This document shows positions 10,805-48,729 of a stretch of 64,000 nucleotides of DNA, one piece after another. Below the pieces are notes generated by a model, which saw only the letters and a program-made list of their open reading frames with translations, ran no database searches and had not been told where the DNA came from. The DNA lies in contig JAHHTZ010000008.1 in NCBI GenBank assembly GCA_020024285.1, positions 281-64,280 on the forward strand, given 5' to 3'. The translations under genes were made by a program, and so were the position numbers. This DNA is from Oscillospiraceae bacterium. GTDB lineage: Bacteria; Bacillota; Clostridia; Oscillospirales; Ruminococcaceae. Every line of letters begins with the position of its first letter. The stretch's first letter is position 1.

Positions 10805-11191
10805 ATGTATAACTTGGACCATTGCATTTTTGTAACGAACAACGACCGCGTGATGGAAAAATTCGGGGAAAGCGCAGGGGAAGTGCGCCTTCTTGAGGAT
10901 TACCGCGACGTTCTTGTTGCAGCGCGCGACCTCATCTATGCCGGGCACAAGCTGCTCACCCATCCGCAGGCCTCAAGCCTCAAGCCCAATCAGACCCCGT
11001 ACCGCACCGTTTTGCTGTATGGAGAAACGGGAGAGCTCGACAGCGAGGCGGTCATGCTGATCGAACAAGCTATCGAAAACTTCGACAAATGGCAGGAGAT
11101 CCGCCAGACCCCGCAATACGATCCCAAAATTGCCAACGACTACAAAACCATCGATCTTTCCATGATCGAAAATATTATTCCAAAATTATAA
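10805..11191 (+). CDS. grdX: GrdX-family protein (accessory protein of glycine-type reductase loci)
   Basis: About 128 aa, containing ...FVTNNDRV... and GHKLLTHPQASSLKPNQTPYRTVLL, which match my memory of GrdX proteins. Genomic context with GrdE/GrdB homologues supports the call. Confidence 0.65.
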   Translation: MYNLDHCIFVTNNDRVMEKFGESAGEVRLLEDYRDVLVAARDLIYAGHKLLTHPQASSLKPNQTPYRTVLLYGETGELDSEAVMLIEQAIENFDKWQEIRQTPQYDPKIANDYKTIDLSMIENIIPKL

Positions 11192-11204
11192 GGACCAGTA
11201 CGAT

Positions 11205-11915
11205 ATGTTTATTGATATTCCCGAATGCGCCCCACGCACTTTTTTTAAGAACCTCAAGCGAAAAGACTACATCGAAAAAGCATCCCAGATCATCCGCAGC
11301 GAAGGCACACAGGCGGTGAGCATCCGCCGCATGGCAAAGGAGCTTGACTGCTCCACCACGGCGATGTACCGCCATTTTCAAAACCTCGACGAGCTGCTGT
11401 TTTATGCACATCTGAGCGACCTCAACACCTATATCGCAAATCTCGAGGAAAAGGTGCCCACATGGAACTCAATGTGGGATGTTCACTTTGGCATCTGGGA
11501 GCTTTACTCGGACCAGGCGTTTCGAAAGCCGGAGGCGTTTGAGCTGATTTTTTACCGCAATCTCAACAAGGATCTCGGCTCTGCTTTGGAGGAATATTAC
11601 GAGATGTTCCCGGAAACCATCGTCAATGTCACCCCGCTCATCAAGGAGATGCTGCAAATTCCGGGCTATTATGAGCGCGATTATCATATCCTGATGCACC
11701 TTGTGGAGCACGGCTTGATCACGCCGGAGAATGCGAAAAAAATCAATCACATTGAGTGCAATCTCTTCCTCGGGTATTTCAAATACGTTCAGGATACCGG
11801 GATTTCTGAAGAAGATGTGCCGAACCTTGTGGCGCAGTTTATGGCAGAGGTCAAGGAGATCATCTCCCTGTACCAGCTTTCGGATATGCAAAGCGCCGCA
11901 AACGGACTTCTTTAA
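11205..11915 (+). CDS. TetR/AcrR-family transcriptional regulator
   Basis: N-terminal HTH region IIRSEGTQAVSIRRMAKELDCSTTAMYRHFQNLDELL. Starts 13 nt after grdX. Confidence 0.85.
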   Translation: MFIDIPECAPRTFFKNLKRKDYIEKASQIIRSEGTQAVSIRRMAKELDCSTTAMYRHFQNLDELLFYAHLSDLNTYIANLEEKVPTWNSMWDVHFGIWELYSDQAFRKPEAFELIFYRNLNKDLGSALEEYYEMFPETIVNVTPLIKEMLQIPGYYERDYHILMHLVEHGLITPENAKKINHIECNLFLGYFKYVQDTGISEEDVPNLVAQFMAEVKEIISLYQLSDMQSAANGLL

Positions 11916-12338
11916 ACCGAAACACACGACCACCATACGCCTTGTGCATGGTGGCTGTTTTTTTATACTTTTTACAATATCACGAAGCCTTAGCGCTTCC
12001 GGCAGGACTTCCTGATCCAAAACCGAACGCAAATTTTCGGATGGATCAGGGGGTCTTTTTTTCTGTTTTCACTTTTTTGTTTTCAAAATCAAGGGGCAGG
12101 GAGGAAAAAAATTCGGAATAAAAATCGCTTGGAGCGATTATTTTTTTGCAGAGCGGCTAAAATCATGTGAAAAAAATATGAACAAAAAGCAAGGAAAAAA
12201 TTAACTATTATCACTTAACAATTTTTCGTCAATGAAAATTGGGCGCCGATCTTTGTTATTTTTATTTGACAAGTTGGCGAATTTTACTGATACAAAGTAT
12301 CAATTTACAATAAAAATAATAAGTTATCGCTAAAACTA

Positions 12339-12367
12339 TTGAAAATTGCCGTGATAACATTTATAAT
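12339..12367 (+). promoter_or_regulatory. sigma-A-type promoter candidate for the Na+ symporter gene
   Basis: TTGAAA, a 17-nt spacer, then TATAAT, about 70 nt upstream of the ATG. Confidence 0.5.
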
Positions 12368-12435
12368 CAAGCCAAAGATTAATCTTGTTCGTCAAATGTC
12401 TGAAAAATATTGTTAAGGTGGAAGGAGTGCGTTTT

Positions 12436-13806
12436 ATGAGTAACAATGTACAGAACCAACCAAAACAATGGAACTCACGGTTTGGTTATATCATGGTAGC
12501 TGCCGGAGCAGCCATCGGTTTGGGAAACATCTGGAAATTCCCGTACTTGGCTTACCGCGGAGGCGGCGGCATTTTCCTGCTGGTCTATATTTTGATTATT
12601 GCTGTAATGGCACACCCGATGGTTGAAATGGAAACCGCAATCGGCAGACACGGTAAATCCGATACCGTTTCCGTTTACGAGAAGATCAACAAAAAATGGG
12701 GCTTTGTTGGTTGGATGGCAAATATTTGTACGCTGATGATCAATATGTTCTACGTCGTAGTCGGCGGCTGGGTGCTCAAATATGCGGCTCAGTTTATCGT
12801 CAGCGGCGATTTTGGAAACGATACCGCGATGTTCTACAACAACTACATCGCACAGCCGGTCGAGCCAATCATTTGGACCTTTATCCTGATGGCATTCTGC
12901 TCGTTCCTGCTGCTCTTCGGAATCACCGAGATCGTAGAAAAGGTTACAAAGGTCATCATGCCTGCACTGTTTATCATGCTGATCGTCTGCGGCGTTTACG
13001 CCTGCTTCAGCACAGAGGGCGCAATCGAAGGTCTGAAATACTACCTGCTGCCCGAACCAAAGAATTTCTCGATCAAAGTATTCGCGGACGCTGCAACTCA
13101 GGTTCTGTTCTCCGTTGGTATCGGCTGGGGTATCTTTACCACCCTCGGTGCCAATGTTCCGGACAAAAACAACCTTAAAAGCGATGCGATCCTCGTTTCG
13201 ATCTGCGATACCATGGCTGCGATCCTTGCAGGCTTCGTTGTCATCCCGTCCGCTTACGGCGCCGGCGTTGACCTGCAGGCGGGTCCAAGACTGCTGTTTG
13301 AAGTAATGGCCGGCATCTTCTCCAGAGTACCGGGCGGACGCTTCATCGGTGCATTCTTCTTTATCGCCGTTGCATTTGCTGTAATCTCCTCGCTGTTCAC
13401 CTTCTTTGAAATCTCCATGAAGACCTTTGAAGTGAAGCTGAACATGGGACGCAAAAAAGCAGTTGCTGTTGTTTCGCTCATCATCTTCATCGGAAGCATC
13501 CTCGTGTCCCTCAACTTCGGCGTGATGAAGAGTCTGGTGCTTCCATGGCCTCACATGTCCGGCATTCAGTGGTATGGTCTGTTTGACTGGTTCGATTGCT
13601 TTACCGCATACGTTCTTCTGCCTGCCGGCTGTCTGTTTACCTGCATGTTCGTTGCAAAGGTTTGGAAATTCGATGCCTATGAAAAAGAGCTTACTGCAAA
13701 CGGCCGTGACGGCAAGCTGAAGCCTTACGACAAATTCCTGGTTAAGTATGTCGTTCCTGCTTTCATGCTCATCATCATTTTGAATGTATTCGGCGTGATC
13801 CAATAA
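12436..13806 (+). CDS. sodium-dependent transporter, neurotransmitter:sodium symporter (NSS/SNF) family
   Basis: NSS signature GLGNIWKFPYLAYRGGGG and about 11-12 TM helices. GGTGGAAGGAG RBS before the ATG at 12436. Confidence 0.9.
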   Translation: MSNNVQNQPKQWNSRFGYIMVAAGAAIGLGNIWKFPYLAYRGGGGIFLLVYILIIAVMAHPMVEMETAIGRHGKSDTVSVYEKINKKWGFVGWMANICTLMINMFYVVVGGWVLKYAAQFIVSGDFGNDTAMFYNNYIAQPVEPIIWTFILMAFCSFLLLFGITEIVEKVTKVIMPALFIMLIVCGVYACFSTEGAIEGLKYYLLPEPKNFSIKVFADAATQVLFSVGIGWGIFTTLGANVPDKNNLKSDAILVSICDTMAAILAGFVVIPSAYGAGVDLQAGPRLLFEVMAGIFSRVPGGRFIGAFFFIAVAFAVISSLFTFFEISMKTFEVKLNMGRKKAVAVVSLIIFIGSILVSLNFGVMKSLVLPWPHMSGIQWYGLFDWFDCFTAYVLLPAGCLFTCMFVAKVWKFDAYEKELTANGRDGKLKPYDKFLVKYVVPAFMLIIILNVFGVIQ

Positions 13807-13863
13807 AAAATATTATTTGAGGGCAACATCCGGATTTTTCAGACAGTACACACGATTCGATCA

Positions 13864-13894
13864 AAAGAGCTGCCCTGCGGGCAGCTCTTTTTTC
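13864..13894 (+). terminator. rho-independent terminator
   Basis: Hairpin aaagagctgccc-tgc-ggggcagctcttt type stem followed by a T-run. Confidence 0.7.
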
Positions 13895-14040
13895 TATGAT
13901 GCAGTTAAAAAAGCCTCATATCTCCGCAGGATGCACAAAAGCGCGGCGGAATTTCCGGGGTGAAACTATAAAAACTGCTTAAACCATGCGATATTATGTG
14001 AACAAAGCAACCAAAGTTTAATAATTTGATAAAATGCAGG

Positions 14041-14069
14041 TTGAATATCGCGATAACATATGATATATT
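14041..14069 (+). promoter_or_regulatory. sigma-A-type promoter candidate for the grdE-like/grdB-like pair
   Basis: TTGAAT, a 17-nt spacer, then TATATT. The spacer contains the palindrome TATCGCGATA. Confidence 0.45.
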
Positions 14070-14168
14070 GAACATAAAGGTTAACGCGATAATCTTCACG
14101 CCCAAACCCCGAAAAATATGTCATTTATACGGAGATACGTTCAACCTACGAAAAGGAGGTACACATTC

Positions 14169-15458
14169 ATGAAGTTGGAATTAGGTAAAATCTTCATCAA
14201 GGATATCCAGTTTGGTGACAAAACATATGTCGAGAAAGGTGTTCTCTATGTAAACAAGGCAGAGGTAGAGGCTCTTGTACTGGAAGATGACAAACTTGCA
14301 GCGTGTCATCTTGAGATTGCAAGACCCGGCGAATCTGTTCGAATCACTCCGGTAAAAGACGTCATCGAACCACGCGTAAAGGTTTCCGGCGGCGGCGAAA
14401 TCTTCCCCGGCGTGATCGGCAAGGTAAGCCCGACCGTCGGCAGCGGCAGGACCCATGCGCTCGAAGGCTGCTGCGTTGTTACAGTTGGTAAGATCGTAGG
14501 CTTCCAAGAAGGCGTGATCGATATGAGCGGTCCGGCTGCAAAATACTGCCCCTTCTCCAAAACCTGCAACCTCTGCGTTGTGATGGAGCCAAACGGCGAG
14601 CTGGAAACACACGTTTATGAAAAAGCTGCAAGAATGGCAGGACTGAAGGTTGCGACCTATCTCGGTCAGGCTGCAAAAGAGCTGGAGCCCGACGAGATCC
14701 AGACCTTCGAAACAAAACCTGTATTCGAGCAGGCTGCCATGTACCCGAATCTTCCAAAAGTAGGTTATATCCACATGCTTCAGTCCCAGGGTCTGCTGCA
14801 TGATACTTATTACTACGGCGTGGATGCAAAACAGCTGGTTCCAACCATCATGTATCCAACCGAAATCATGGATGGCGCGATCGTATCCGGCAACTGCGTT
14901 GCTCCCTGTGACAAGGTAACCACCTTCCACCATCTGCACAATCCGGTAATTGAAGACTGCTTCAAGCATCACGGAAAGGATATCAACTTTATGGGCGTTA
15001 TCCTGACCAATGAGAACGTGTTCCTCGCAGACAAAGAGCGTCACTCCGATATGGTTGCAAAGCTCTGCCAGTGGATGCAGCTGGACGGCGTGCTCATCAC
15101 CGAGGAAGGCTACGGCAACCCGGATACCGACCTGATGATGAACTGCCACAAGGTAGAGCTTGCAGGCACAAAGGTTGTTCTCATCACCGATGAGTTCCCA
15201 GGCAAAGACGGAAAATCCCAGTCCCTGGCTGATACCTGCAAAGAGGCAGATGCACTTTCCTCCTGCGGACAGGGCAATGCGACCCTCCAGTTCCCTGCAA
15301 TGGATCATGTGATCGGTACACAGGATTACATCGAGATGCAGATCGGCGGCTGGGCAGGATGCGTAAATTCGGACGGCAGCTTTGAAGCAGAGCTGCAGAT
15401 CATCATTGCATCCACCATCGCAAATGGTTATAACCATCTTGCTGCAAGAGGTTACTAA
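14169..15458 (+). CDS. glycine/sarcosine/betaine reductase component B alpha/beta proprotein (GrdE/GrdG/GrdI family)
   Basis: N-terminus MKLELGKIFIKDIQFG.... 429 codons. Asn-Cys (SGN|CV) at residues 242/243, where GrdE proproteins self-cleave to form a pyruvoyl group. AAAGGAGG RBS. Confidence 0.85.
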   Translation: MKLELGKIFIKDIQFGDKTYVEKGVLYVNKAEVEALVLEDDKLAACHLEIARPGESVRITPVKDVIEPRVKVSGGGEIFPGVIGKVSPTVGSGRTHALEGCCVVTVGKIVGFQEGVIDMSGPAAKYCPFSKTCNLCVVMEPNGELETHVYEKAARMAGLKVATYLGQAAKELEPDEIQTFETKPVFEQAAMYPNLPKVGYIHMLQSQGLLHDTYYYGVDAKQLVPTIMYPTEIMDGAIVSGNCVAPCDKVTTFHHLHNPVIEDCFKHHGKDINFMGVILTNENVFLADKERHSDMVAKLCQWMQLDGVLITEEGYGNPDTDLMMNCHKVELAGTKVVLITDEFPGKDGKSQSLADTCKEADALSSCGQGNATLQFPAMDHVIGTQDYIEMQIGGWAGCVNSDGSFEAELQIIIASTIANGYNHLAARGY

Positions 15459-15478
15459 TTCAGGAAGGAGATATCATT

Positions 15479-16783
15479 ATGGCTAAATTTAGAGTAGTAC
15501 ATTATATGAATCAGTTCTTCGCTGGTTTGGGCGGTGAAGACAAAGCGGATCTTCGTCCTGAAATTCGAGAATCCGTGGTAGGTCCCGGCATGGCTTTGAA
15601 GGAAGCACTCGGAGAAAACTATGAAATCGTTGCAACCGTGATCTGCGGCGACAACTATTTCGGCGAAAACCTCGAAGAAGCAACCGACACCATTCTCAAA
15701 ATGGTGGAAAAATATAAACCGGACGTATTCGTAGCAGGTCCTGCATTCAACGCAGGTCGTTACGGTGTAGCTTGCGGAACCATCTGTAAAGCAGTGGAAG
15801 AACGCCTCGGCGTTCCAACCGTTACCGGTATGTACGTAGAGAATCCGGGCGTTGATATGTTCCGCAAGGACGTTATTATCGTAGAAACCGGAAACTCCGC
15901 TGCAAAAATGGGCACAGCAATGCCAAAGCTCAGCGCACTTGTTAAGAAGATGGCAAACAAGGAAGAAATCCTTGGTCCAAAAGAGGAAGGCTATCTCGAG
16001 CGCGGCATACGCGTAAACTACTTCGCAGAAAAACGCGGCTCTGAGCGTGCGGTTGAGATGCTCGTGAAAAAACTCAAAGGCGAAGCATTTGAAACCGATC
16101 TTCCGATGCCGGTATTCGACCGTGTTGATCCTGCCGAACCAATCAAAGATATCAAAAAAGCTAAAATCGCTGTGGTTACCTCCGGAGGTATCGTTCCGCA
16201 GGGCAACCCGGATCACATCGAATCCTCCAACGCAACCAAATGGGGCAAATACGACATCACCGGAATGGATCGCCTTTCCCCTGAGAAATTTACCACCATC
16301 CACGGCGGTTATGACAGACAGTTTGCAATGCAGAATCCAAACGTGGTAGTACCTCTGGATGCACTTCGCCAGCTGGAAAAAGAGGGCGAATTCGGTGAGC
16401 TGGTGAACTACTTCTGCGCTACCACTGGTACCGGTACTGCAACCGCATCGGCTGCAAAATTCGGCTCTGAAATCGGTAAAATGCTCCTCGACGAACACGT
16501 TGACGGCGTAATCCTGGTATCGACCTGAGGTACCTGCACACGTTGCGGCGCAACGATGGTAAAAGGTATTGAAAAATACGGTATCCCGGTTGTACATATG
16601 GCAACCGTTGTTCCGATCTCTCTGACGATCGGTGCAAACAGAATCATCCCAGGCGTTGGTATCCCATATCCAATCGGTGATCCAACTCAGGGCGAGGCAG
16701 ACAGCTACAAGATCCGTGTTAAAATGGTGAAGAAGGCTTTGCAGGCTCTTCAGACCCCAGTTACAGAACAAACCGTTTTCTAA
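15479..16783 (+). CDS. selenoprotein B of glycine-type reductase (GrdB/GrdF/GrdH family) with in-frame UGA (Sec)
   Basis: Track ORFs 15479..16528 and 16556..16783 share one frame and are separated only by the TGA at 16526..16528. Read-through gives ...VILVST-U-GTCTRCGATMVKGIEKYGIPVVHM, the UxxCxxC motif of selenoprotein B, for 434 codons in total. Confidence 0.85.
16526..16555 (+). other. UGA(Sec) codon plus candidate SECIS hairpin
   Basis: TGA at 16526, then hairpin cgttgc-ggc-gcaacg at 16541..16555, starting 12 nt after the UGA. That position is appropriate for a bacterial SECIS. Confidence 0.55.
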
Positions 16784-16809
16784 TCTAATACATCCCGAAC
16801 AAAACAAAG

Positions 16810-16851
16810 AGAATCCGCCGCAGTGCTGCATAGCACTGCGGCGGATTCTCT
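16810..16851 (+). terminator. strong hairpin terminator after the selenoprotein B gene
   Basis: Perfect 19-bp stem gagaatccgccgcagtgct / agcactgcggcggattctc with loop gcat. The T-tract is weak. Confidence 0.7.
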
Positions 16852-19100: not shown

Positions 19101-19341
19101 GCATTGCGAAAAAAGGCAATCAAAACAATAGGCTAAAATGTGCAGGAAATCGGGGTACTTCGCCCAAATTTTCTATAATATGACAAAATCGAGAAAAGAC
19201 ACTGGATGGATTTGGAAGAATCGTTGACTTTTTCCTTTGGCACTGGTATAACTAACAAATAGAACGTATTGCAGTGCATCTTTAATGTAGACTGAAATGG
19301 TATTGATTCGCTGCAAGAAGGAAAGGATGGGAAGCGAAAGC

Positions 19342-22300
19342 ATGAGATCATTTATTGCCTACTTGGTTGCGTTTTCTATGACGGCATCCATAGCAGCGCA
19401 AGCACTGACACCTGTGGTATCCGCCGCAGAACCTCCATCGTCCCAAACGGCTGTGGAGCAAAACGGGGAAACCGACCCTGCAAAGCAGGAAAACACCGAA
19501 GCATCCTCCAAAGAGGAACCAAAGGACCCTGCACCGCAGGAAAATCCACAAAACGACAAACAGGAACAAGCTCAGCCAAACGGTGAGGCATCCGCACCGG
19601 ACAGCCAAAATCCCGATGCGCAGGGCAACCCGGCACAGCCCGGCACCCCTTCTGAGGGCGGCACCCCGGATGCACAGCCCGGTACCCCTTCTGAGGGCAC
19701 TGCTCCGAATGCACAGCCCGGCACCCCGGCTGAAGGCACTGCTCCGGATACACAGTCCGGCACCCCTTCTGAAGGCACCGCTCCGAATGCACAGCCCGGT
19801 ACTCCTGCCGAGGGTGAAGCGGCACAGCCTGGCACCCCGATGATCCCGCTGACCCCCGCAGCCAAAATCCAGGAGCAGACCGCGGTGCTCCCAACGGTAA
19901 ACGGCGGCGCAGCAGTATCGATCCATGCTGCCGCACCGATCGCGAAGGACGTTTCCTTCACCGTTTCGGTTTCGGGCGAGAAGGAGGACTCCAAGCAAGT
20001 CACCCTCAAGGGAAACGCGGATGATTCGATGGTGCAGGCAAGGTTTCGGGACCTTCCCGACGGCAGCTATGAGGTGACGGTATCCGCACCCGGATTTGCC
20101 ACCTACACCCAGTCTGTCACCGTACAGAGCGGCATGCTCAGTGAGCTGACCCTCTATACCGCAGAGCTGCGCGGCTACAGCGAAGCTGCAGCACATCCCG
20201 GCGTTCTTCGCCTCGGTGACACAAACGGCGACGGGAAAGTGAGCAAACAGGACGTCGATACGATGCTCGAAGCCATGAAGAACGGCTCGGTCGGCGTCTG
20301 CGACCTCAACGGCGACGGGGAAGTGAACCTCATCGACCTTGAGTATCTCGCATCCAGCCTCACCGACCGCGGCGAGCAGAAAAAAGACATTCACTCCACC
20401 GTGCGCTCCCTGGCGATACAGGAGGCAGTAAAAGCCGAAGCACAGGCAAACGTGAGCGGCAACCTCGACGAGCTCCTCAACGGAAGCAAGGTATCCCTTG
20501 CGCCATCCAATGGGGACGTGAGCGACAGCAACCCGATCCGCGTCGATTTTCACTTTGCAGGCTCCACCAAGGAGGAGCTGCCGAAATTGGATGGGATGCT
20601 CGTGGAATCCCCAAATGAAAAGGGCATCGCAGCAGGCTCTGTCCTTGTCACCTACGTTGACGAAAACGGGCAGGAGCAGACGATGGAGCTTGCGATCCGC
20701 GACGAATCCGCAAGAATGATGACGATGAGCCTTGGTGGTTCCGTCACCCGCCTGAGTGATGGCAGCTTGCAGGTCAACTTCGGCAATCAGATCGCAGTGA
20801 AGAAGATCACTCTCACGATCACAGACACACAGAGCAATAACTTAGCTGAAATTTCCAAAGTGGAATTTGTAAACGGGATGGAAAATCGCATTCCTGCCCC
20901 GGAGATGGACATCCCGCAGGGACTGTCTGCAAAGGCAGGCGACAAACGCCTGACCCTCAGCTGGAATCCATCCACCAACGTGACCGCATACGAGCTGGAA
21001 ATCACAGGTCCTGCAAAGAACGGCAGCGACAACGAAGTCATGACCCTTCGCACCACTGCGACCCAGATCCAGATCAGCTCCATCAACAACAAAAAGCTCA
21101 TCAACAATCGGGAATATACCATCAAGATCCAGTCCCTCAACGGCAGCTGGAAGAGCGGATGGAGCGACCCGATCACCGCAGTACCGAAGGTGAGCGGCAA
21201 GCCGGAGAAGCCGGACAACGTGGAGGCAGTGGGCGGCTATCGCTCCATTGAGGTGAGCTGGAAAAACATGGACGATACCGACAGCTACACCGTACTGTAT
21301 CAGCCCGCGGACGGCAGCGAGCCATACAAGCAGGCAGTTACAAAGCTCGAACGCAACCGCTATAAAATCGAAGGTCTGACGGACAACACCGAATACCGCG
21401 TTGTGGTATACGGCACCAACGACCTCGGCGACGGTCCGCAGAGCACACCGGCACTTGCCACCACAAGAAGCCTTGTGGATGCATGGATGCCTTCTTACCG
21501 ACTCATCAATACACCAAACGGAAAAGGTCAGCTGACAGCACACATCAAAAATGCTCAGAAGCTGCGCGGCTCCAGTGCGAAAATGATGGGCAGCACTCTG
21601 GACAAGGAGGACTCCGACACCGCACTCGGTGTATTGGACAGCGACCAGAGCTCCTACTACTATGTTGCAGACTGGGATGACGGTGTTCACTACGGCAACG
21701 GCGGCAGCGAGGTCAAGACAGACCGCGGTATCCGCGTGACCTTCGATCAGGAATTCGAGTTTGGCGCAATCGCATTTGCCGAACCGGAAAACGGCGCCAT
21801 CAATCAGGTGCGCGTCAACTATCTGGACAAATCGAGCGGCGAAATGAAGCCGATCAAAAACATCCGCCTCAGCGTCAAGATGGACAAAAACAACCGCAGA
21901 CACTTCTATGCTGCGTTTGATGAGAAAATCGTGACCGATCAGCTTCAGCTGTGCACCGCAACCGGAAACACAAACAGCATCAAGATCGCGGAGCTTCGCT
22001 TCTATGGCTACGACAGCCTCTACAGCGACATCATGAACCTCTATGAGGATGTATACCACACCGAGCTCAAGCCGGAAGTGGACGAAGCGAAAATCAACGA
22101 GCTGCAAACCCGACTCAATACTCCGGAGCAGGCAAGCGGCGAATGCCACCCGGAACAGGAGATCCTCCAGCGTGAAATCGATACTGCGCGCAAGATTCTC
22201 GGCAGCCAGAACCTCAACCGCGTCATCGATGTAAAACCTTCCCTCAGCGCGACAGCGAAGGGACGCAGCGACAGTAAGCTCGGCTTCACCGGGCTCAACG

Positions 22301-24960
22301 ACTGGCAGCCGCTGGGCGTAACGGTTGGGGCAGGCGAGAGCTTCACCGTCTATGTCGGTCATCCGAACAAGCGTGTGGGCGACCGCACCGACCTCAAAAT
22401 CGTATTCACCCAGTACAATGCAGAATCCGGCAAATTCATGCAGGAAACAAATTACCTCAAAATCGGTGAAAACGTGATGACCGCTCCTGCCATCGTCAGC
22501 AAGGACTTTGAGCGCGGCGGCTCGGTTTACATCCGCTACACCGGCAGCAATCAAAACGATCAGTACGGGGTGCGTGTCGACGGCGGCACGAAGATCCCAA
22601 TGCTCGACCTGTATCAGGTGACCGATGAGGCAGAGCGCCTCAAACGCACCAAGGAATACGTGGAAGAGCTGGAAGCCTACGTTGCAAACCTCTCTGCACA
22701 GCATGACCTCCTGCATCAGGGCAGCGAGAACGCAAACATCAACAAACCGTACAAAGAGGAGGAATGCATCCTCGGTGCCACCGAGCTGCTCACCGACCGC
22801 ATGCTCTTCTCCGTTTCTGCAAAACGGATGCTCGCAGGACTCGGCGGCGGCAGCGCGGACGACAAGGCAAGAAAGCTCAACGATTCCATGCAGGCGATGG
22901 ACGACATGATGGTGCTCTTCTACCAGCATAAGGGTCTTACCGACGGTGCTTCGAACGCCATCGATCAGACTCCGTCCCAGCACCTCAACATCCGCTATAT
23001 GCGTATGTTTGCAGGCGCATTCATGTATGCATCCGGCAACCACATCGGCATCGGCTGGGGCTCTGTTCCCGGAATGGCAGGCGGTGTTCCCGTCAAAGCG
23101 GACGCTAAGGGCAAATATCAGTCCGGCAATCTGTTCGGCTGGGGCATCGGCCACGAGATCGGTCACGACATCAACCAAGGCAGCTATGTCATCGCCGAAG
23201 TGACCAACAACTACTTTGCACAGCTTGCCAACTACAAGAACGGTCCAGCCCGCTTCACCTATGACAAGGTGTACGACAAGGTGACCTCCAATACCGTGGG
23301 CAGGGACGAAAACCTCTTCACCCAGCTTGCAATGTTCTGGCAGCTGCGCCTTGCATACGACAACTACTATCCATACAAAACATTCGATACAGAACGCGAA
23401 GTATTCGATAATCTCTTCTTTGCCCGCGTGGATACCTTCTCAAGAACGCCTTCCCGCGCAACCGAGGGATTGGCTGATCCGAAACCGCTCAAGCTCACCG
23501 GCGATGCAGAGCAGAACTTCATCCGTCTGAGCTCTGCTGCGGCACAGAAGGACCTGAGCGAATTCTTCACCCGCTGGGGCTGGATTCCAACCGAGGAAAC
23601 AAAAGCCTTCATCGGTCAGTGGCCAAAGGAAACACGCGCCATCTTCTACGGCAACGATGCCGTACAGTCCTACCGCATCGAAAACCCGAACGGAGCGACC
23701 TTTGAAAATAAAATCGTCCTCCATGCATCCGAGGTCACCCTCACACAGGGCAACGATGCAAACGGTCTTGAACAGAATCAGGTGAAGCTCGATATTCGCC
23801 CATCCTCTGCTGATTCCATGCTCTTTGGCTATGAAATCAGCCGCACCACCATTTCCGGCGGTGCAGAGCACACCGAGGCAGTCGGCTTTGTACCGGCATC
23901 CTCCGACGGCAGCGCATCCTTTACGGATACGGTGACCACCATCAACAACCGCACCTTTACCTACCAGATCACACCGATCGACCAGTACCTTGTCAGAGCA
24001 AATTCCGCTCAGATGAAGCAGATCAAGATCGCGCACGACGGCAGCCACGACAAGAGCGGCTGGACTTTGAGCACCAACATGGTTTCCGATCAGGATACCG
24101 CAGAAAACCACGATGACGAGAACCCGGATTCCGGCATGGATCAAAATGCAGGAAACGGCGGGAAGAAGTCTGCAATCGGACTTGCTGCTGACAACCGACT
24201 CGACACCACCTACAACGGAACTGCGGCAGGCGGCGATGCTCAGATCGAAGTGCAGTTTAACCGTCCGCTCAATGTGACAGGCTTTAAGCTCAGCACCGCA
24301 CAGAGCGGTCTGACCGTGGAGGCAGAGCTTCTCGAAAACGGGAAATGGACCGCAGTTTCCCTCAGCGCATCTAATGCAGGGAACAACGAGGTCGTATACT
24401 TTACGAACGACGAAGGCTGGATTCGCACCGGCAATTCGACCGCGCTGCGCCTGACCTTCAAGGGCGCACAGAGCGTGAGCCTCAGTGAGCTGAGTGTGCT
24501 CGGTCCGACCGGCGACAACGTAGAGCATATGAGGGACGGCATCGGCATCCTCAAGGCAGACTACGTCTACGACAAGGAGCTTTACAGCACAAGCGGACAG
24601 AAGGACGGCTTCATCCCGAAGGATTCCGTCGTATTTATGGGGACATACAAGGGCAACCCCGCTTACAACGCCGTGATCCTCTACGATGAAAACGGAAAGA
24701 TCGTGGGTGCAAACGGAACCTCCGAACAGATCATCCTTGCTCCCGTACCGGACAAGGGCGACCTGGGCACCACCTCCGACGGACGCTGGGTATACTGGAT
24801 CGCGAAGGATGCCCCAAGACCGAAGCGCGTGCGCGCAGAGCTTTACCGCGTTGACGATGCCCTCACAAACAAAGGACAGCGCCATGTCAGCGATACCGAA
24901 TGGGCAGAGGTTCCGGGAACACTTCCGGAACTCACCATCGCTTCCGACTCTCAAAACTAA
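19342..24960 (+). CDS. giant secreted multidomain protein: Pro-rich repeats, dockerin, 2x FN3, M60-like (enhancin-like) zinc metallopeptidase, discoidin/CBM-like C-terminal modules
   Basis: Signal peptide MRSFIAYLVAFSMTASIAAQA. Dockerin repeats DTNGDGKVSKQD and DLNGDGEVNLID. FN3-like segments (LTLSWNPSTNVTAYELEI, IEVSWKNMDDTDSYTVLY). HEIGH at nt 23152..23166 followed by AEVTNNYF, as in M60-like gluzincins. Confidence 0.85.
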   Translation: MRSFIAYLVAFSMTASIAAQALTPVVSAAEPPSSQTAVEQNGETDPAKQENTEASSKEEPKDPAPQENPQNDKQEQAQPNGEASAPDSQNPDAQGNPAQPGTPSEGGTPDAQPGTPSEGTAPNAQPGTPAEGTAPDTQSGTPSEGTAPNAQPGTPAEGEAAQPGTPMIPLTPAAKIQEQTAVLPTVNGGAAVSIHAAAPIAKDVSFTVSVSGEKEDSKQVTLKGNADDSMVQARFRDLPDGSYEVTVSAPGFATYTQSVTVQSGMLSELTLYTAELRGYSEAAAHPGVLRLGDTNGDGKVSKQDVDTMLEAMKNGSVGVCDLNGDGEVNLIDLEYLASSLTDRGEQKKDIHSTVRSLAIQEAVKAEAQANVSGNLDELLNGSKVSLAPSNGDVSDSNPIRVDFHFAGSTKEELPKLDGMLVESPNEKGIAAGSVLVTYVDENGQEQTMELAIRDESARMMTMSLGGSVTRLSDGSLQVNFGNQIAVKKITLTITDTQSNNLAEISKVEFVNGMENRIPAPEMDIPQGLSAKAGDKRLTLSWNPSTNVTAYELEITGPAKNGSDNEVMTLRTTATQIQISSINNKKLINNREYTIKIQSLNGSWKSGWSDPITAVPKVSGKPEKPDNVEAVGGYRSIEVSWKNMDDTDSYTVLYQPADGSEPYKQAVTKLERNRYKIEGLTDNTEYRVVVYGTNDLGDGPQSTPALATTRSLVDAWMPSYRLINTPNGKGQLTAHIKNAQKLRGSSAKMMGSTLDKEDSDTALGVLDSDQSSYYYVADWDDGVHYGNGGSEVKTDRGIRVTFDQEFEFGAIAFAEPENGAINQVRVNYLDKSSGEMKPIKNIRLSVKMDKNNRRHFYAAFDEKIVTDQLQLCTATGNTNSIKIAELRFYGYDSLYSDIMNLYEDVYHTELKPEVDEAKINELQTRLNTPEQASGECHPEQEILQREIDTARKILGSQNLNRVIDVKPSLSATAKGRSDSKLGFTGLNDWQPLGVTVGAGESFTVYVGHPNKRVGDRTDLKIVFTQYNAESGKFMQETNYLKIGENVMTAPAIVSKDFERGGSVYIRYTGSNQNDQYGVRVDGGTKIPMLDLYQVTDEAERLKRTKEYVEELEAYVANLSAQHDLLHQGSENANINKPYKEEECILGATELLTDRMLFSVSAKRMLAGLGGGSADDKARKLNDSMQAMDDMMVLFYQHKGLTDGASNAIDQTPSQHLNIRYMRMFAGAFMYASGNHIGIGWGSVPGMAGGVPVKADAKGKYQSGNLFGWGIGHEIGHDINQGSYVIAEVTNNYFAQLANYKNGPARFTYDKVYDKVTSNTVGRDENLFTQLAMFWQLRLAYDNYYPYKTFDTEREVFDNLFFARVDTFSRTPSRATEGLADPKPLKLTGDAEQNFIRLSSAAAQKDLSEFFTRWGWIPTEETKAFIGQWPKETRAIFYGNDAVQSYRIENPNGATFENKIVLHASEVTLTQGNDANGLEQNQVKLDIRPSSADSMLFGYEISRTTISGGAEHTEAVGFVPASSDGSASFTDTVTTINNRTFTYQITPIDQYLVRANSAQMKQIKIAHDGSHDKSGWTLSTNMVSDQDTAENHDDENPDSGMDQNAGNGGKKSAIGLAADNRLDTTYNGTAAGGDAQIEVQFNRPLNVTGFKLSTAQSGLTVEAELLENGKWTAVSLSASNAGNNEVVYFTNDEGWIRTGNSTALRLTFKGAQSVSLSELSVLGPTGDNVEHMRDGIGILKADYVYDKELYSTSGQKDGFIPKDSVVFMGTYKGNPAYNAVILYDENGKIVGANGTSEQIILAPVPDKGDLGTTSDGRWVYWIAKDAPRPKRVRAELYRVDDALTNKGQRHVSDTEWAEVPGTLPELTIASDSQN
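19633..19848 (+). repeat. 39-bp in-frame tandem repeat (AQPGTPSEGTAPN-type linker)
   Basis: gcacagccc recurs at 19633, 19672, 19711, (19750, variant), 19789 and 19822. Confidence 0.85.
20203..20365 (+). other. type I dockerin module inside the M60-like protein
   Basis: Two Ca-binding loops matching DxNxDGxxxxxD, spaced about 30 aa apart (GDTNGDGKVSKQDVDTML ... CDLNGDGEVNLIDLEYL). Confidence 0.8.
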
Positions 24961-27599: not shown

Positions 27600-27825
27600 A
27601 GAATCGATCCTCCCTTTTTTTCATGATTATAGCATACGCAATCGGAAAAGACAATAGCGCTTGTTTTTATCCATAAAACTGCAAATTTAAAACATTTTCA
27701 CCATGATTTTCGGAGGATTCGACTAAAAATATAGAAGTATTGCACGATAATTAAATTGACAACCATCAAACAATGTGTTACATTGGAGAAGGCAATCAAA
27801 CTTGATTCAAGGAAAGGTGATTACA

Positions 27826-29043
27826 ATGAAAGCATACGAAAGATTACTCCGCTATGTCACGATCAAAACACCTTGCGACGAAGGCTGCGACGCTACCCCA
27901 AGCTCAAAGGCTCAGTTCGAGCTGGCAAAGGTGCTGTACGACGAGCTTAAAGCACTGGGCGTAGAGGACGTTACCCTCACCGATCACTGCTTTGTTTACG
28001 CAAAGATCCCTGCAACGAAGGGACTCGAAAACAAGACGAAGATCGGCTTCATCGCGCATATGGACACCGTTCCGGAATTTTGTGAAAACGAGATCCGCCC
28101 CGTGATCACAGAAAACTATAACGGCGAGGATCTCCCGCTTGGAACGAGCGGTCGTGTCCTGCGCGTGAAGGATTTCCCGCATCTGCCCTCCCTCAAGGGA
28201 AGGACGCTCATCACCTCCGATGGCACCACCATCCTCGGCGTGGACGACAAAGCAGGAATTTCTGAAATCATGACGATGGTTGAGCGCCTCAAAGAGGAAA
28301 ACATCGCGCACGGTCCGCTGCGGATCGCCTTCACACCGGACGAAGAGAAGGGCACCGGCGCAAACTCCTTCGATATCGACTTCTTCGATGCCGATTATGC
28401 ATACACCCTCGACGGCGACACGGAGGGCGAGATCCAGTATCAGAACTTCAACGCCTGCGAAGCCATCTTTGAAGTAAACGGCGTCAATGTTCATCCGGGC
28501 TCGGCTAAGGATGTGATGATCAACGCCGTTCTCGTAGCCTGCGAAATCAACAATATGCTCCCCGGCTGCGAAACACCAAGACATACTTCCGAATACGAGG
28601 GCTTCTATCATCTTTTGAGCATCCATGGCGACGAAGGCTTTGCAAAATCGGAATATATCATCCGCGACCACGACGAACATTCCTTTGCGGCAAGAAAAGC
28701 CACCCTGCGCCACATCGAAAAAATTATGAACGAAACATGGGGCGAGGGGACGGTAAAGCTCACCATCAACGACGAATACCGCAACATGGAGTGCATCGTG
28801 GAACAGTGCATGCAGCTGATTGAGAATGCAAAAGAGGCTGCAAAGGAAGTCGGCATCGAGCCGCTCGTTTGCCCGATCCGCGGCGGTACGGACGGCTGCA
28901 AGCTCTCCTTCCGCGGTCTGCCCTGCCCGAACCTCGGCGTAGGCGGTCATGGCTACCACGGTCCATACGAGCACGCTACCGCAGAGGGTATGGACAAAGC
29001 AACCGACATGACCGTTGCTCTTGTTAAGATCTTCGCAAAATAA
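27826..29043 (+). CDS. pepT: peptidase T (tripeptide aminopeptidase, M20B)
   Basis: N-terminus MKAYERLLRYV.I.T, plus IGFIAHMDTVPE and the GVDDKAG motif. 405 aa. Confidence 0.9.
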   Translation: MKAYERLLRYVTIKTPCDEGCDATPSSKAQFELAKVLYDELKALGVEDVTLTDHCFVYAKIPATKGLENKTKIGFIAHMDTVPEFCENEIRPVITENYNGEDLPLGTSGRVLRVKDFPHLPSLKGRTLITSDGTTILGVDDKAGISEIMTMVERLKEENIAHGPLRIAFTPDEEKGTGANSFDIDFFDADYAYTLDGDTEGEIQYQNFNACEAIFEVNGVNVHPGSAKDVMINAVLVACEINNMLPGCETPRHTSEYEGFYHLLSIHGDEGFAKSEYIIRDHDEHSFAARKATLRHIEKIMNETWGEGTVKLTINDEYRNMECIVEQCMQLIENAKEAAKEVGIEPLVCPIRGGTDGCKLSFRGLPCPNLGVGGHGYHGPYEHATAEGMDKATDMTVALVKIFAK

Positions 29044-29062
29044 TCGACCCAATCAAAGCACA

Positions 29063-29094
29063 AAAGGCAGTCAGGGAATCTGACTGCCTTTTGT
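29063..29094. terminator. bidirectional terminator
   Basis: Hairpin aaaggcagtcag-ggaat-ctgactgccttt followed by TT. Confidence 0.7.
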
Positions 29095-29288
29095 TATCTC
29101 CTCTTTTTTGGGGAAGGATCGAAACACAGCGCGAAAAATTCAGGATACCAAATATTTCTCCCAAAAAATTTACCGATAGAAAAAAGATTCGGATTCGTTT
29201 TCGCACAAAGTGGGAAAAATCAAACAGGATGCCGTGCGTTTTATCAAAGCACGGATTGTATCAATACTTCCTTTTATGAGAAATTATT

Positions 29289-32570: not shown

Positions 32571-32577
32571 CGCACTC

Positions 32578-32616
32578 AAAAACCTCTGCCGCACAGCGAT
32601 GCGGCAGAGGTTTTTT
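32578..32616 (+). terminator. rho-independent terminator
   Basis: Hairpin aacctctgccgca / tgcggcagaggtt followed by a T6 run. Confidence 0.75.
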
Positions 32617-48646: not shown

Positions 48647-48729
48647 AAAATCGAGCGGCTGTCCCTATGCGGCTGCATTTTTCCACCATCCCGACACCCT
48701 GCGGTGCAAAGTTTTTACAATCTGTGCCT

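What the first reader, a model, noticed from the sequence alone, without database searches (positions are those of the whole stretch)
10805..16851. Stand-alone substrate-specific 'protein B' selenoenzyme module (GrdX, TetR, NSS transporter, GrdE-like, GrdB-like) without grdA/grdC/grdD/trx
Five co-oriented genes form a compact unit: a GrdX homologue, a TetR regulator, a Na+-coupled NSS transporter, a 429-aa GrdE/G/I-family proprotein and a 434-codon GrdB/F/H-family selenoprotein. In characterised Stickland systems, protein B is the substrate-binding component. Three paralogue pairs are known: GrdE/B for glycine, GrdG/F for sarcosine and GrdI/H for betaine. Protein B needs selenoprotein A (GrdA), protein C (GrdC/D) and thioredoxin, and none of those is encoded in this 64-kb window. 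The Asn242|Cys243 self-cleavage site is conserved, which argues for a pyruvoyl-dependent enzyme acting on a primary or secondary amine rather than a quaternary one. A dedicated NSS importer and a local TetR suggest an inducible pathway for a specific imported amine, whose identity cannot be read from the sequence. It could be an additional substrate specificity plugged into a core Grd system encoded elsewhere, possibly for a substrate not yet described.
Basis: partly seen in the sequence, partly recalled or inferred. Interest (0 to 1): 0.78.

Follow-up and report, generated by a model that had tools for sequence, protein, structure and literature searches.

The report
TetR-controlled sarcosine-reductase protein B module
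This is an intact, selenium-dependent substrate-binding module of the glycine/sarcosine/betaine reductase system. It falls in the already-named sarcosine-reductase (GrdG/GrdF) family, and its gene layout is common in gut and oral anaerobes, so it is a well-preserved but largely ordinary member of a known system.

Summary
Five co-oriented genes are present: grdX, a TetR regulator, an NSS transporter, a 429-aa GrdE-family proprotein and a 434-aa GrdB-family selenoprotein. The selenoprotein has an in-frame UGA followed by an Rfam SECIS element. No grdA, grdC, grdD or trxA lies anywhere in the 64 kb.

The claim that the substrate is unreadable and possibly new is not supported. Both subunits pass NCBI's curated cut-offs for sarcosine reductase GrdG and GrdF. 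The alpha subunit is 73% identical to GrdG of Peptoclostridium (Eubacterium) acidaminophilum and groups with it in 100% of bootstraps. The beta subunit's placement is unresolved.

The layout grdX-tetR-grdG-grdF, with one of two mutually exclusive transporters, recurs in dozens of Lachnospiraceae, Oscillospirales, Peptacetobacter and Leptotrichia genomes. It is usually more than 10 kb from grdA/C/D. In two relatives the core grd operon and selA/selB lie 15-20 kb away. P. acidaminophilum itself has stand-alone grdG/F loci.

One thing appears new: a conserved palindromic operator, GTTATCGCGATWAC. It sits over the grdG promoter in 53 of 53 loci that have the TetR gene and is absent from 12 of 13 that lack it.

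Sarcosine as the substrate is inferred by homology only; no member of this gut clade has been assayed. Verdict: new member of a known kind, modest interest.

The parts
10805..11191 (+). grdX (128 aa), a GrdX-family protein of unknown function that travels with protein B genes
   Evidence: NCBIfam NF038093, 129.8 bits against cut-off 40. Present in 52 of 57 well-covered related loci.
11205..11915 (+). TetR-family regulator (236 aa), the predicted repressor of the grdG and NSS promoters
   Evidence: Pfam TetR_N, 26.7 bits against 24. Present in 45 of 57 related loci. Its presence tracks the operator motif: 53/53 with, 1/13 without.
11929..11964 (+). hairpin plus U-run; likely terminator of the grdX-tetR unit
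   Evidence: Fold -13.9 kcal/mol, z = -3.1, followed by UUUUUUU; also listed by the terminator scan.
12323..12367 (+). NSS promoter (-35 TTGAAA 12339-12344, -10 TATAAT 12362-12367) with an operator-like site GTTATCGCTAAAAC at 12323-12336 and a weaker site in the spacer
   Evidence: Promoter scan, 11 of 12 matches. The 12-mer matches with 2 mismatches at 12324-12335. Similar sites lie upstream of NSS in L003, L088 and L089.
12436..13806 (+). Na+-coupled NSS (SNF/LeuT-fold) transporter, 456 aa from ATG 12436; predicted substrate importer
   Evidence: Pfam SNF, 174 bits. Best PDB relative is the amino-acid transporter MhsT, 4us3, E = 2e-60. Orthologues are adjacent to grdG/F in 15 of 57 genome loci and are mutually exclusive with the 381-aa membrane protein. 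The same X-TetR-NSS-G-F order occurs in L089.
13866..13893 (+). intrinsic terminator of the NSS gene
   Evidence: 13-bp GC-rich stem plus UUUUUU; -22.3 kcal/mol, z = -5.5.
14041..14069 (+). grdG-grdF promoter (-35 TTGAAT 14041-14046, extended -10 TGaTATATT ending at 14069)
   Evidence: Promoter scan; sequence read.
14044..14057 (+). operator O1, AATATCGCGATAAC, in the spacer between -35 and -10
   Evidence: 12-mer core with 1 mismatch. The family-wide palindrome GTTATCGCGATWAC was derived from 115 sites.
14080..14093 (+). operator O2, GTTAACGCGATAAT, 36 bp centre-to-centre downstream of O1, just after the -10
   Evidence: 12-mer core with 1 mismatch. A two-site arrangement is typical of related loci.
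14169..15458 (+). grdG: protein B alpha proprotein (429 aa) with Asn242|Cys243 self-cleavage / pyruvoyl site
   Evidence: NCBIfam sarcosine_GrdG, 871.6 bits against 780. 73% identical to P. acidaminophilum GrdG. The SGNCVAPCDKV motif is shared with GrdG; GrdE has SGNCVSACDKN. Grouped with GrdG in 100% of bootstraps.
15479..16783 (+). grdF: protein B beta selenoprotein (434 aa), Sec350 in the motif ST-U-GTCTRCGAT
   Evidence: NCBIfam sarcosine_GrdF, 826.6 bits against 800. 65% identical to P. acidaminophilum GrdF. dN/dS 0.054 before and 0.046 after the UGA.
16526..16566 (+). UGA selenocysteine codon (16526-16528) and SECIS element (16529-16566)
   Evidence: Rfam RF01990 SECIS_4, 59.7 bits against 38, E = 1e-11. 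TGA is conserved in L002 and L003.
16808..16851 (.). perfect 20-bp hairpin after grdF; likely end of the transcription unit (no U-run on the + strand)
   Evidence: -45 kcal/mol, z = -8.7; terminator scan.

Best explanation
The locus encodes the substrate-specific 'protein B' of a Stickland-type reductase and belongs to the GrdG/GrdF (sarcosine reductase) family.

Proposed mechanism:
1. GrdG is made as a 429-aa proprotein. It cleaves itself between Asn242 and Cys243, which creates an N-terminal pyruvoyl group.
2. The pyruvoyl group binds the amine of the imported substrate, most likely sarcosine (N-methylglycine), as a Schiff base/iminium.
3. Sec350 of GrdF attacks the alpha-carbon. Methylamine is released and a carboxymethyl-selenoether is left.
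4. The carboxymethyl group is passed to selenoprotein A (GrdA).
5. Protein C (GrdC/D) converts it to acetyl phosphate, which can yield ATP. Thioredoxin and thioredoxin reductase re-reduce GrdA.

GrdA, GrdC/D, TrxA/B and the Sec-insertion machinery must be encoded outside this window, as they are in relatives.

The locus is organised as three transcription units: grdX-tetR, the NSS transporter gene, and grdG-grdF. The TetR protein is predicted to repress the transporter and grdG-grdF promoters. It would do so by binding the palindrome GTTATCGCGATWAC, which overlaps those promoters, and would release it when the substrate or a related ligand is present. The NSS symporter is predicted to import the substrate.

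Shown here: gene content; family assignment by curated models and by the alpha-subunit tree; intact Sec/SECIS and cleavage motifs; purifying selection; conservation of the module; co-variation of operator and TetR; core genes elsewhere in relatives.

Inferred: sarcosine as the substrate; the chemistry (taken from the E. acidaminophilum and C. sticklandii enzymes; my knowledge of the Andreesen-laboratory literature); TetR binding and its inducer; the transporter's cargo; the existence of core genes in this genome.
For: Family assignment:
- GrdG model 871.6 bits against 780, and GrdF model 826.6 against 800.
- The same GrdG model gives 881 to P. acidaminophilum GrdG2, but only 626 to a canonical GrdE and 333 to a GrdI-like protein.
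- Alpha identity is 73% to GrdG, 57-58% to GrdE and 39% to GrdI-like.
- Alpha bootstrap for gut clade + GrdG is 100%. Of 37 columns that discriminate GrdE from GrdG, 26 are GrdG-type and 7 GrdE-type.

Functional integrity:
- SECIS at 59.7 bits.
- N242|C243 conserved in 81 of 81 clade members, and the U-x-x-C-x-x-C motif is universal.
- dN/dS is 0.02-0.05, including the segment after the UGA.

A substrate distinct from glycine:
- The clade coexists with canonical GrdE/GrdB in Leptotrichia loci L013 and L027, and on the same contigs in two Clostridia MAGs.

Core genes elsewhere:
- Both MAG contigs carry grdE-grdB-trxB-trxA-grdA-fused grdCD, with selA-selB alongside and grdX at the head of the L086 copy, 15-20 kb from the module.
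- Directly downstream core genes occur in L004, L015 and L071.

Regulation:
- The operator is present in 53 of 53 TetR-containing loci and in 1 of 13 without TetR.
- The only two matches with at most 1 mismatch in the 64-kb window both lie at the grdG promoter.
- Operator-like sites occur upstream of NSS only where NSS has its own promoter inside the module.

Transporter:
- The NSS and the 381-aa membrane protein are mutually exclusive neighbours: 15 and 28 of 57 loci, never both.
- The 381-aa protein also follows grdF2 in P. acidaminophilum at 43% identity.
Against: - No member of this gut/oral subclade has been assayed. None was found in the searchable literature.
- The beta subunit does not clearly group with GrdF. 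Bootstrap is 52% for gut+GrdF against 43% for GrdF+GrdB, and discriminating columns split 9 to 6. Its GrdF score clears the cut-off by only 27 bits, and it also passes the GrdB model (629.9 against 602.2).
- Context differs from the archetype. There is no creatinase and no BCCT transporter, and the regulator is TetR rather than sigma-54 dependent.
- In Enterocloster-type loci this pair is the only protein B seen next to the core genes. That would also fit a glycine reductase.
- grdA/C/D, trxA and the sel genes could not be looked for in this genome beyond the window.
- The operator-TetR association counts related loci, which are not independent events.
Confidence: 0.68

Rival explanations
1. 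The gut/oral GrdG/F-like clade is a second type of glycine reductase protein B, not a sarcosine enzyme. 'Sarcosine' would then be an annotation carried over from the nearest characterised paralogue.
For: - The beta subunit passes the glycine GrdB model (629.9 against 602.2), and its tree position is unresolved.
- In L004, L015 and L071 the pair sits directly upstream of trxB-trxA-grdA-grdCD with no GrdE/B within 10 kb. L058 shows core genes plus this pair but no GrdE/B on its 10.7-kb contig.
- No sarcosine-generating enzyme such as creatinase is conserved nearby.
- The pyruvoyl site accepts both primary and secondary amines.
Against: - Alpha subunit: 100% bootstrap with GrdG, and 26 to 7 GrdG-type signature columns.
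- Canonical GrdE scores 626 on the GrdG model, against 872-886 for this clade.
- The clade coexists with a canonical GrdE/B in at least four genomes. That argues for non-redundant specificity.
- It shares the 381-aa membrane-protein neighbour with the P. acidaminophilum grdG2/F2 locus.
Confidence: 0.15
2. The clade reduces a substrate not yet described for Grd enzymes, such as another N-substituted glycine or a host- or diet-derived amine. It would be imported by the MhsT-like NSS or by the 381-aa membrane protein and sensed by the TetR protein.
For: - The clade is a distinct subfamily with 100% bootstrap, only 64-73% identical to the archetype.
- Regulator and transporters differ from the archetype.
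- The closest solved NSS relative carries hydrophobic amino acids.
- There is a precedent for new specificities in gut Lachnospiraceae. A Grd-like pair, finHI, is induced by riboflavin in C. scindens and is proposed to cleave a C-N bond (PMC13492142).
Against: - The motif around the pyruvoyl site is identical to GrdG.
- Only 1 of 170 alpha columns and 4 of 164 beta columns that are invariant across GrdE/B plus GrdG/F are changed in this clade. There is therefore no sign of a remodelled active site.
- The neighbourhood lacks the aldolase, dehydrogenase and RibF genes of the fin cluster.
- Three-paralogue genomes mirror the glycine/sarcosine/betaine trio of E. acidaminophilum.
Confidence: 0.12
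3. It is an orphan or decaying remnant acquired by horizontal transfer, with no proteins A and C in this genome, and so has no catalytic role.
For: - No grdA/C/D, trxA or sel genes lie in the 64 kb.
- The clade is scattered across distant taxa, including Lachnospiraceae, Oscillospirales, Leptotrichia and Peptacetobacter. That suggests transfer.
Against: - All five ORFs are intact, as are the SECIS and the Sec codon.
- dN/dS is 0.02-0.05, including the stretch after the UGA, which is only translated if Sec insertion works.
- The operator and promoters are conserved.
- 90% of related loci are equally 'alone' within 10 kb, yet relatives carry the core elsewhere.
Confidence: 0.05

Closest known systems
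Sarcosine reductase protein B (GrdG/GrdF) of Peptoclostridium (Eubacterium) acidaminophilum: megaplasmid loci EAL2_RS14510/14505 and EAL2_RS13375/13370
   Same: - Two-gene alpha/beta pair in the same order.
- Alpha 73% and beta 64-65% identical.
- Identical SGNCVAPCDKV cleavage motif and ST-U-GTCTRCGAT Sec motif.
- Passes the same NCBIfam models.
- Both P. acidaminophilum loci lie away from grdC/D and carry their own regulator and transporter. One of them has GrdX and the same 381-aa membrane-protein family that most gut loci have.
   Different: - The regulator is a TetR protein with a palindromic operator, not a sigma-54 activator with a sensor protein.
- The transporter here is an NSS, not a BCCT.
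- There is no creatinase-like M24 gene and no local grdA copy.
- The window pair belongs to a separate, well-supported gut/oral subclade.
- The beta subunit is no closer to GrdF than GrdF is to GrdB.
Glycine reductase protein B (GrdE/GrdB) in the canonical grdX-trxB-trxA-grdE-grdA-grdB-grdC-grdD operon (Acetoanaerobium/C. sticklandii type)
   Same: Same fold families, pyruvoyl Asn|Cys site, Sec motif, SECIS type and GrdX partner. It would use the same proteins A and C and the same thioredoxin system.
   Different: - Only 57-60% identical.
- Alpha is excluded from the GrdE clade in 100% of bootstraps.
- The signature is NCVAPCDKV rather than NCVSACDKN.
- It is not embedded in the core operon.
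- It coexists with true GrdE/B in several genomes.
Betaine reductase protein B (GrdI/GrdH) with a BCCT transporter
   Same: A substrate-specific protein B module with its own transporter that plugs into a shared core. It is found next to this clade in Leptotrichia, Faecousia and Dorea loci.
   Different: - 39% (alpha) and about 50% (beta) identity.
- GrdI-like proteins lack the Asn-Cys site (SGSFMP).
- The GrdH model scores 597 against a cut-off of 775, so it is not met.
finHI, the riboflavin-induced Grd-like pair of Clostridium scindens (PMC13492142)
   Same: A Grd-family alpha/beta pair in gut Lachnospiraceae, located away from the classical grd operon.
   Different: The neighbourhood is different (RibF-like kinase, aldolase, alcohol and aldehyde dehydrogenases, permeases). 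None of those genes is near this locus or conserved near its relatives.

Membership tests
Sarcosine reductase protein B (GrdG/GrdF) | Alpha subunit reaches the curated NCBIfam NF040793 (sarcosine_GrdG) cut-off | tested here: met
   871.6 bits against 780. Canonical GrdE scores 626 and GrdI-like 333 on the same model.
Sarcosine reductase protein B (GrdG/GrdF) | Beta subunit reaches the curated NCBIfam NF040794 (sarcosine_GrdF) cut-off and scores best on that model | tested here: met
   826.6 bits against 800. This is the best of the GrdF, GrdB (629.9) and GrdH (596.9) models, but the margin is narrow.
Sarcosine reductase protein B (GrdG/GrdF) | Groups phylogenetically with the biochemically defined E. 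acidaminophilum GrdG/GrdF rather than with GrdE/B or GrdI/H | tested here: inconclusive
   Alpha: 100% NJ bootstrap with GrdG. Beta: 52% with GrdF against 43% for GrdF+GrdB. Only NJ trees were built, and only one characterised species was available.
Sarcosine reductase protein B (GrdG/GrdF) | Asn|Cys self-processing site that gives a pyruvoyl group in the alpha proprotein | tested here: met
   Asn242-Cys243 in SGNCVAPCDKV, identical to P. acidaminophilum GrdG and conserved in 81 of 81 clade members. This is sequence-level evidence only; cleavage was not observed.
Sarcosine reductase protein B (GrdG/GrdF) | Selenocysteine in the beta subunit, encoded by UGA with a downstream SECIS | tested here: met
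   TGA at 16526-16528. Rfam SECIS_4 at 59.7 bits against 38. Post-UGA dN/dS is 0.046.
Sarcosine reductase protein B (GrdG/GrdF) | Sarcosine-dependent, protein A- and C-dependent formation of acetyl phosphate and methylamine | not testable with these tools
   No biochemical data for this clade were found in the searchable literature.
Sarcosine reductase protein B (GrdG/GrdF) | Genome also encodes GrdA, GrdC/D, thioredoxin and thioredoxin reductase, and selA/B/C/D | not testable with these tools
   Absent from the 64-kb window. The source genome could not be extended. These genes are present 15-20 kb away or adjacent in relatives.
Glycine reductase protein B (GrdE/GrdB) | Alpha subunit clusters with GrdE; beta is best explained by the GrdB equivalog TIGR01917 | tested here: not met
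   Alpha is 57-58% identical to GrdE and is never grouped with it (0% bootstrap). Beta passes TIGR01917 (629.9 against 602.2) but scores about 200 bits higher on GrdF.
Betaine reductase protein B (GrdI/GrdH) | GrdH model cut-off reached; the alpha subunit lacks the Cys of the cleavage site | tested here: not met
   GrdH scores 596.9 against 775. The Asn-Cys site is present here, whereas GrdI-like proteins have SGSFMP.
TetR-family repressor with palindromic operator | N-terminal TetR HTH domain, and a palindromic operator overlapping the target promoter | tested here: met
   TetR_N at 26.7 bits against 24. The 14-bp palindrome lies over the -35/-10 spacer and just downstream of the -10 and co-varies with the TetR gene. 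Binding and ligand were not tested.
NSS (SNF/LeuT-fold) Na+ symporter | Full-length match to PF00209 / NF037979 | tested here: met
   PF00209 at 174 bits; NF037979 at 125 bits against 50. MhsT matches over the full length, E = 2e-60. The substrate was not determined.
GrdX family | Match to NF038093 above the cut-off, and location next to protein B genes | tested here: met
   129.8 bits against 40. Adjacent to grdG/F in 52 of 57 loci and to grdE in L082 and L086.

The most novel reading that the evidence does not exclude
The gut/oral GrdG/F subclade may not be a sarcosine enzyme. It would instead reduce a different amine: glycine in organisms where it is the sole protein B, or an undescribed N-substituted glycine imported by the MhsT-like NSS or the uncharacterised 381-aa membrane protein. 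The TetR/GTTATCGCGATWAC switch would then be its dedicated sensor. The evidence leaves this open for three reasons. The beta subunit is not resolved with GrdF. The regulator, the transporters and the lack of a creatinase all differ from the archetype. No member of the clade has been assayed.
Probability: 0.25. Interest if true: 0.6.

Novelty: new member of a known kind. Interest (0 to 1): 0.3.

Why it matters
If the assignment is right, many common human gut and oral anaerobes can use sarcosine as a terminal electron acceptor. Carriers include Dorea, Sellimonas, Faecalicatena, Enterocloster, Peptacetobacter, Catonella, Johnsonella and Leptotrichia. Sarcosine arises from creatine and from choline/betaine breakdown. 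Its reduction would yield ATP through acetyl phosphate and release methylamine. That is relevant to gut nitrogen and methylamine budgets and to the selenium demand of commensals.

The practical value of this analysis is threefold:
- It shows that the locus is already covered by curated annotation and does not represent a new enzyme class.
- It defines a testable regulatory element: two TetR operators over the grdG promoter.
- It identifies two mutually exclusive candidate importers. Together with the operators, these would allow the substrate of this unassayed clade to be identified experimentally.

Tried and rejected
- Riboswitch or other cis-RNA control: an Rfam scan of the whole window found only the SECIS. 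No tRNA-Sec was found.
- Solved structures for the alpha subunit: none. Substrate-pocket comparison was therefore impossible.
- Extending the genome: exact-protein look-ups of both possible GrdG start sites found nothing. A look-up with the window's glycogen phosphorylase found only a 30-kb Logan contig. The search for grdA/C/D and sel genes in this genome could not be done.
- TrxB-like ORF at 52603-53568 as the missing thioredoxin reductase: rejected as a dedicated partner. It is below the TrxB cut-off, 36 kb away and on the opposite strand.
- M24 gene at 32698-34551 as a creatinase: rejected. Its domain set is that of aminopeptidase P, and it shows only a 66-residue, E = 0.12 match to the P. 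acidaminophilum creatinase-like protein.
- TetR autoregulation through the same operator upstream of grdX: not supported. It was found in 2 of 66 loci, which is background level.
- The 381-aa membrane partner: no Pfam, NCBIfam or PDB match.
- NSS exclusively linked to grd: not strictly. One abundant gut lineage (8 near-identical metagenome contigs) has the NSS orthologue without grd genes or operator within 6 kb.
- Literature: no experimental work on this clade, its TetR or its transporters was found.
- The first NJ run timed out and was repeated on a subset. No maximum-likelihood tree was possible with the installed tools.

Full report
**Observation**

- GrdX: NCBIfam NF038093, 129.8 bits against a cut-off of 40.
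- A TetR-family protein: Pfam TetR_N.
- An NSS/SNF transporter: Pfam PF00209, 174 bits.
- A 429-aa member of Pfam Gly_reductase: 661 bits.
- A GRDB-family protein: 577 bits.

The GRDB-family reading frame continues through an in-frame TGA at 16526-16528 to give 434 residues. Rfam's SECIS_4 model matches directly after the TGA, at 16529-16566, with 59.7 bits against a gathering score of 38.

tblastn with GrdA, GrdC, GrdD, TrxA and TrxB from two reference organisms finds no GrdA, GrdC, GrdD or TrxA in the 64 kb. Pfam annotation of about 40 further ORFs shows unrelated genes: a fucosidase, a chemotaxis receptor, an M60-like giant protein, peptidases, glycogen genes and others. The only partial exception is a TrxB-like flavoprotein at 52603-53568 on the minus strand. 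It falls below NCBI's thioredoxin-reductase cut-off.

**What the pair is**

NCBI's curated models place the two subunits in the sarcosine-reductase family.
- GrdG scores 871.6 bits (cut-off 780) and GrdF 826.6 (cut-off 800).
- The glycine GrdB model gives 629.9. The betaine GrdH model gives 596.9, below its cut-off.
- The GrdG model separates the classes cleanly. P. acidaminophilum GrdG2 scores 881 and other members of this clade 875-886. A canonical GrdE scores 626 and a GrdI-like protein 333.

A tblastn search of the plasmid collection hit the megaplasmid of Peptoclostridium (Eubacterium) acidaminophilum DSM 3953. To my knowledge, this is the organism in which the three substrate-specific protein Bs were defined. 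The annotated grdG there is 73% identical to the window's alpha subunit, and grdF is 65% identical to the beta subunit. GrdE and GrdB of Acetoanaerobium noterae and Leptotrichia are 57-60% identical. GrdI/H-like proteins are 39-51% identical.

In neighbour-joining trees rooted on the GrdI/H-like group, the window's clade plus P. acidaminophilum GrdG is recovered in 100% of 200 bootstraps for the alpha subunit. The beta subunit is unresolved: 52% with GrdF against 43% for GrdF+GrdB. Column signatures say the same. At 37 alpha positions that separate GrdE from GrdG, the clade has the GrdG residue at 26 and the GrdE residue at 7. For beta the split is 9 to 6.

The motif around the cleavage site, SGNCVAPCDKV, is identical to GrdG. 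It differs from GrdE (SGNCVSACDKN) and from GrdI-like proteins, which lack the Cys (SGSFMP).

**How common the layout is**

A scan of one genome per GTDB species found 538 relatives. The best 80 are 79-96% identical. They come from several groups:
- Lachnospiraceae: Dorea, Sellimonas, Faecalicatena, Enterocloster, [Clostridium] asparagiforme.
- Oscillospirales MAGs: Negativibacillus at 96% and Faecousia at 94%.
- Peptacetobacter.
- Oral Catonella, Johnsonella and Oribacterium.
- Leptotrichia.

NCBI already labels many relatives as sarcosine reductase component B.

Among 57 loci with enough flanking DNA:

| Feature | Loci (of 57) |
|---|---|
| GrdF | 57 |
| GrdX | 52 |
| TetR | 45 |
| NSS orthologue only | 15 |
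| 381-aa polytopic membrane protein only | 28 |
| Both transporters | 0 |
| Neither transporter | 14 |

The 381-aa membrane protein has no family assignment. The exact gene order of the window, X-TetR-NSS-G-F, recurs in a metagenome contig (L089).

Of 48 loci with about 10 kb on both sides, only 5 have any of GrdA/C/D nearby. P. acidaminophilum itself has two grdG/F loci away from grdC/D.
- One has a sigma-54 regulator, a BCCT transporter, a creatinase-like M24 gene and a grdA copy.
- The other has a sigma-54 regulator, GrdX and the same 381-aa membrane-protein family at 43% identity.

Being 'stand-alone' is therefore the normal state of this module.

**Is it functional, and where is the rest of the system?**

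Against the closest relative (L002), dN/dS is as follows:

| Segment | dN/dS |
|---|---|
| grdG | 0.02 |
| grdF before the UGA | 0.054 |
| grdF, 84 codons after the UGA | 0.046 |

The tail is therefore translated and Sec insertion is maintained. The TGA is conserved in L002 and L003, the two relatives checked directly.

This genome could not be extended beyond the window, but relatives are informative. In two MAGs the module lies 15-20 kb from a canonical cluster on the same contig. That cluster has the core genes grdE-grdB-trxB-trxA-grdA-fused grdCD in both, with selA-selB next to them and grdX at the head of the L086 copy. The second pair there is of the GrdE/B type. In Enterocloster-type loci, trxB-trxA-grdA-grdCD follow 2-3 kb downstream. 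In Leptotrichia the module sits between a full glycine reductase operon and a GrdI/H-like pair with a BCCT transporter. Because the clade coexists with true GrdE/B, it also argues that the clade's specificity is not glycine.

**Regulation (the new part)**

The window has three transcription units:
- grdX-tetR, ending at a hairpin with a U-run at 11929-11964.
- The NSS gene, with a promoter at 12339-12367 and a strong terminator at 13866-13893.
- grdG-grdF, with a promoter at 14041-14069 and a 20-bp hairpin at 16808-16851.

K-mer enrichment in the 330 bp upstream of grdG across 77 loci revealed a 14-bp palindrome, GTTATCGCGATWAC, usually in two copies. It is present in 53 of 53 loci that have the TetR gene and in 1 of 13 that lack it (Fisher p = 3e-12; the loci are related, so this overstates independence).

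In the window, the only two matches to the 12-bp core with at most 1 mismatch are at 14045-14056 and 14081-14092. The first lies in the -35/-10 spacer and the second just after the -10. A weaker site flanks the NSS promoter. Equivalent sites occur upstream of NSS only in loci where NSS has its own promoter inside the module. No such site precedes grdX.

The simplest reading is that TetR represses the grdG-grdF and NSS promoters and is released by a ligand. This is an inference; binding was not tested.

**Mechanism and confidence**

By homology with the E. acidaminophilum and C. sticklandii enzymes (my knowledge of the Andreesen-laboratory literature; no solved structure exists), the steps would be:
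1. GrdG self-cleaves to give a pyruvoyl group.
2. The pyruvoyl group binds the substrate amine.
3. Sec350 of GrdF takes over the carboxymethyl group and methylamine is released.
4. GrdA, GrdC/D and thioredoxin, encoded elsewhere, complete the reaction to acetyl phosphate.

I put about 0.68 on this module being a TetR-controlled sarcosine-type protein B.

The main uncertainty is the substrate, for four reasons:
- The clade is distinct from the only characterised GrdG/F.
- The beta subunit is not resolved with GrdF.
- Regulator and transporters differ from the archetype, and no creatinase is linked.
- No experiments on this clade were found.

A 2026 paper proposes a new C-N cleavage role for another Grd-like pair, finHI, in C. 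scindens (PMC13492142). New specificities in this family among gut Lachnospiraceae are therefore plausible. However, that pair's neighbourhood is unlike this one.

**Verdict**

The finding is real and well described. It is an intact member of a known, curated family in a common architecture, not a new enzyme class or an orphan. The predicted TetR operator and the two mutually exclusive candidate importers are useful handles for determining the substrate of this widespread but unassayed gut clade.

Noticed in passing
L010:12726-13871 (also L015:12702-13838, L083:12751-13866): A roughly 380-aa polytopic membrane protein with no Pfam, NCBIfam or PDB match follows grdF in 28 of 57 related loci and in one P. 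acidaminophilum grdG/F locus (43% identity). It never co-occurs with the NSS orthologue. It is probably an uncharacterised transporter family for the same substrate.
   Followed up: partly
L015:16903-19494; also L085:8001-10550 and L086:8001-10565: Protein C is encoded as a single fused GrdC-GrdD polypeptide of about 850-863 aa in Enterocloster asparagiformis and many Clostridia MAGs. The classical Peptostreptococcales operons have two genes.
   Followed up: no
L013 and L027 (Leptotrichia), whole loci: Three protein B paralogue pairs sit in one supercluster with trxB/trxA/grdA/grdC/grdD: GrdE/B, the GrdG/F-like clade, and a GrdI/H-like pair with a BCCT transporter. This mirrors the glycine/sarcosine/betaine trio of E. 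acidaminophilum, but in a Fusobacteriota genome. The GrdG/F copy is 86% identical to Firmicutes copies, which suggests horizontal transfer.
   Followed up: partly
window 40996-43154: A histidine kinase plus a YcbB (GlnL-type) response regulator. A homologous response regulator lies inside or beside the grdG/F locus in 9 relatives (Enterocloster and Peptacetobacter groups), between the membrane-protein gene and trxB. In the window it is 25 kb away, next to glycogen genes.
   Followed up: partly
window 52603-53568 (-): A thioredoxin-reductase-like flavoprotein, 41% identical to the grd-operon TrxB. At 254 bits it is below the NCBIfam TrxB cut-off of 343, and its best match is a putative AhpF-homologue model. 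My first Pfam pass tested the wrong strand here.
   Followed up: partly
window 19297-24960: A 1887-aa secreted-type protein with an M60/enhancin-like peptidase domain, FN3 repeats, a dockerin and a CarboxypepD_reg domain. It is possibly a mucin- or glycoprotein-degrading enzyme.
   Followed up: no
window 48083-50822: A second TetR regulator (TetR_C_8 type) directly upstream of an MCRA-family fatty-acid hydratase of 656 aa.
   Followed up: no
L090-L095, L101, L103 (human gut metagenome contigs): Eight near-identical contigs (92-99% nucleotide identity) carry a 75-76% identical NSS orthologue with no grd genes and no TetR operator within 6 kb. In at least one abundant gut lineage the transporter is therefore unlinked from the module.
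   Followed up: partly
window 27775-34551: A cluster of two M20 peptidases, a DcuC-family carrier and an aminopeptidase P-type M24 enzyme. This is a peptide/amino-acid catabolism neighbourhood. The M24 protein is not creatinase-like.
   Followed up: partly
window 16808-16851: A perfect 20-bp inverted repeat (-45 kcal/mol) after grdF. Its T-run is on the minus-strand side only, although no minus-strand gene converges on it.
   Followed up: no
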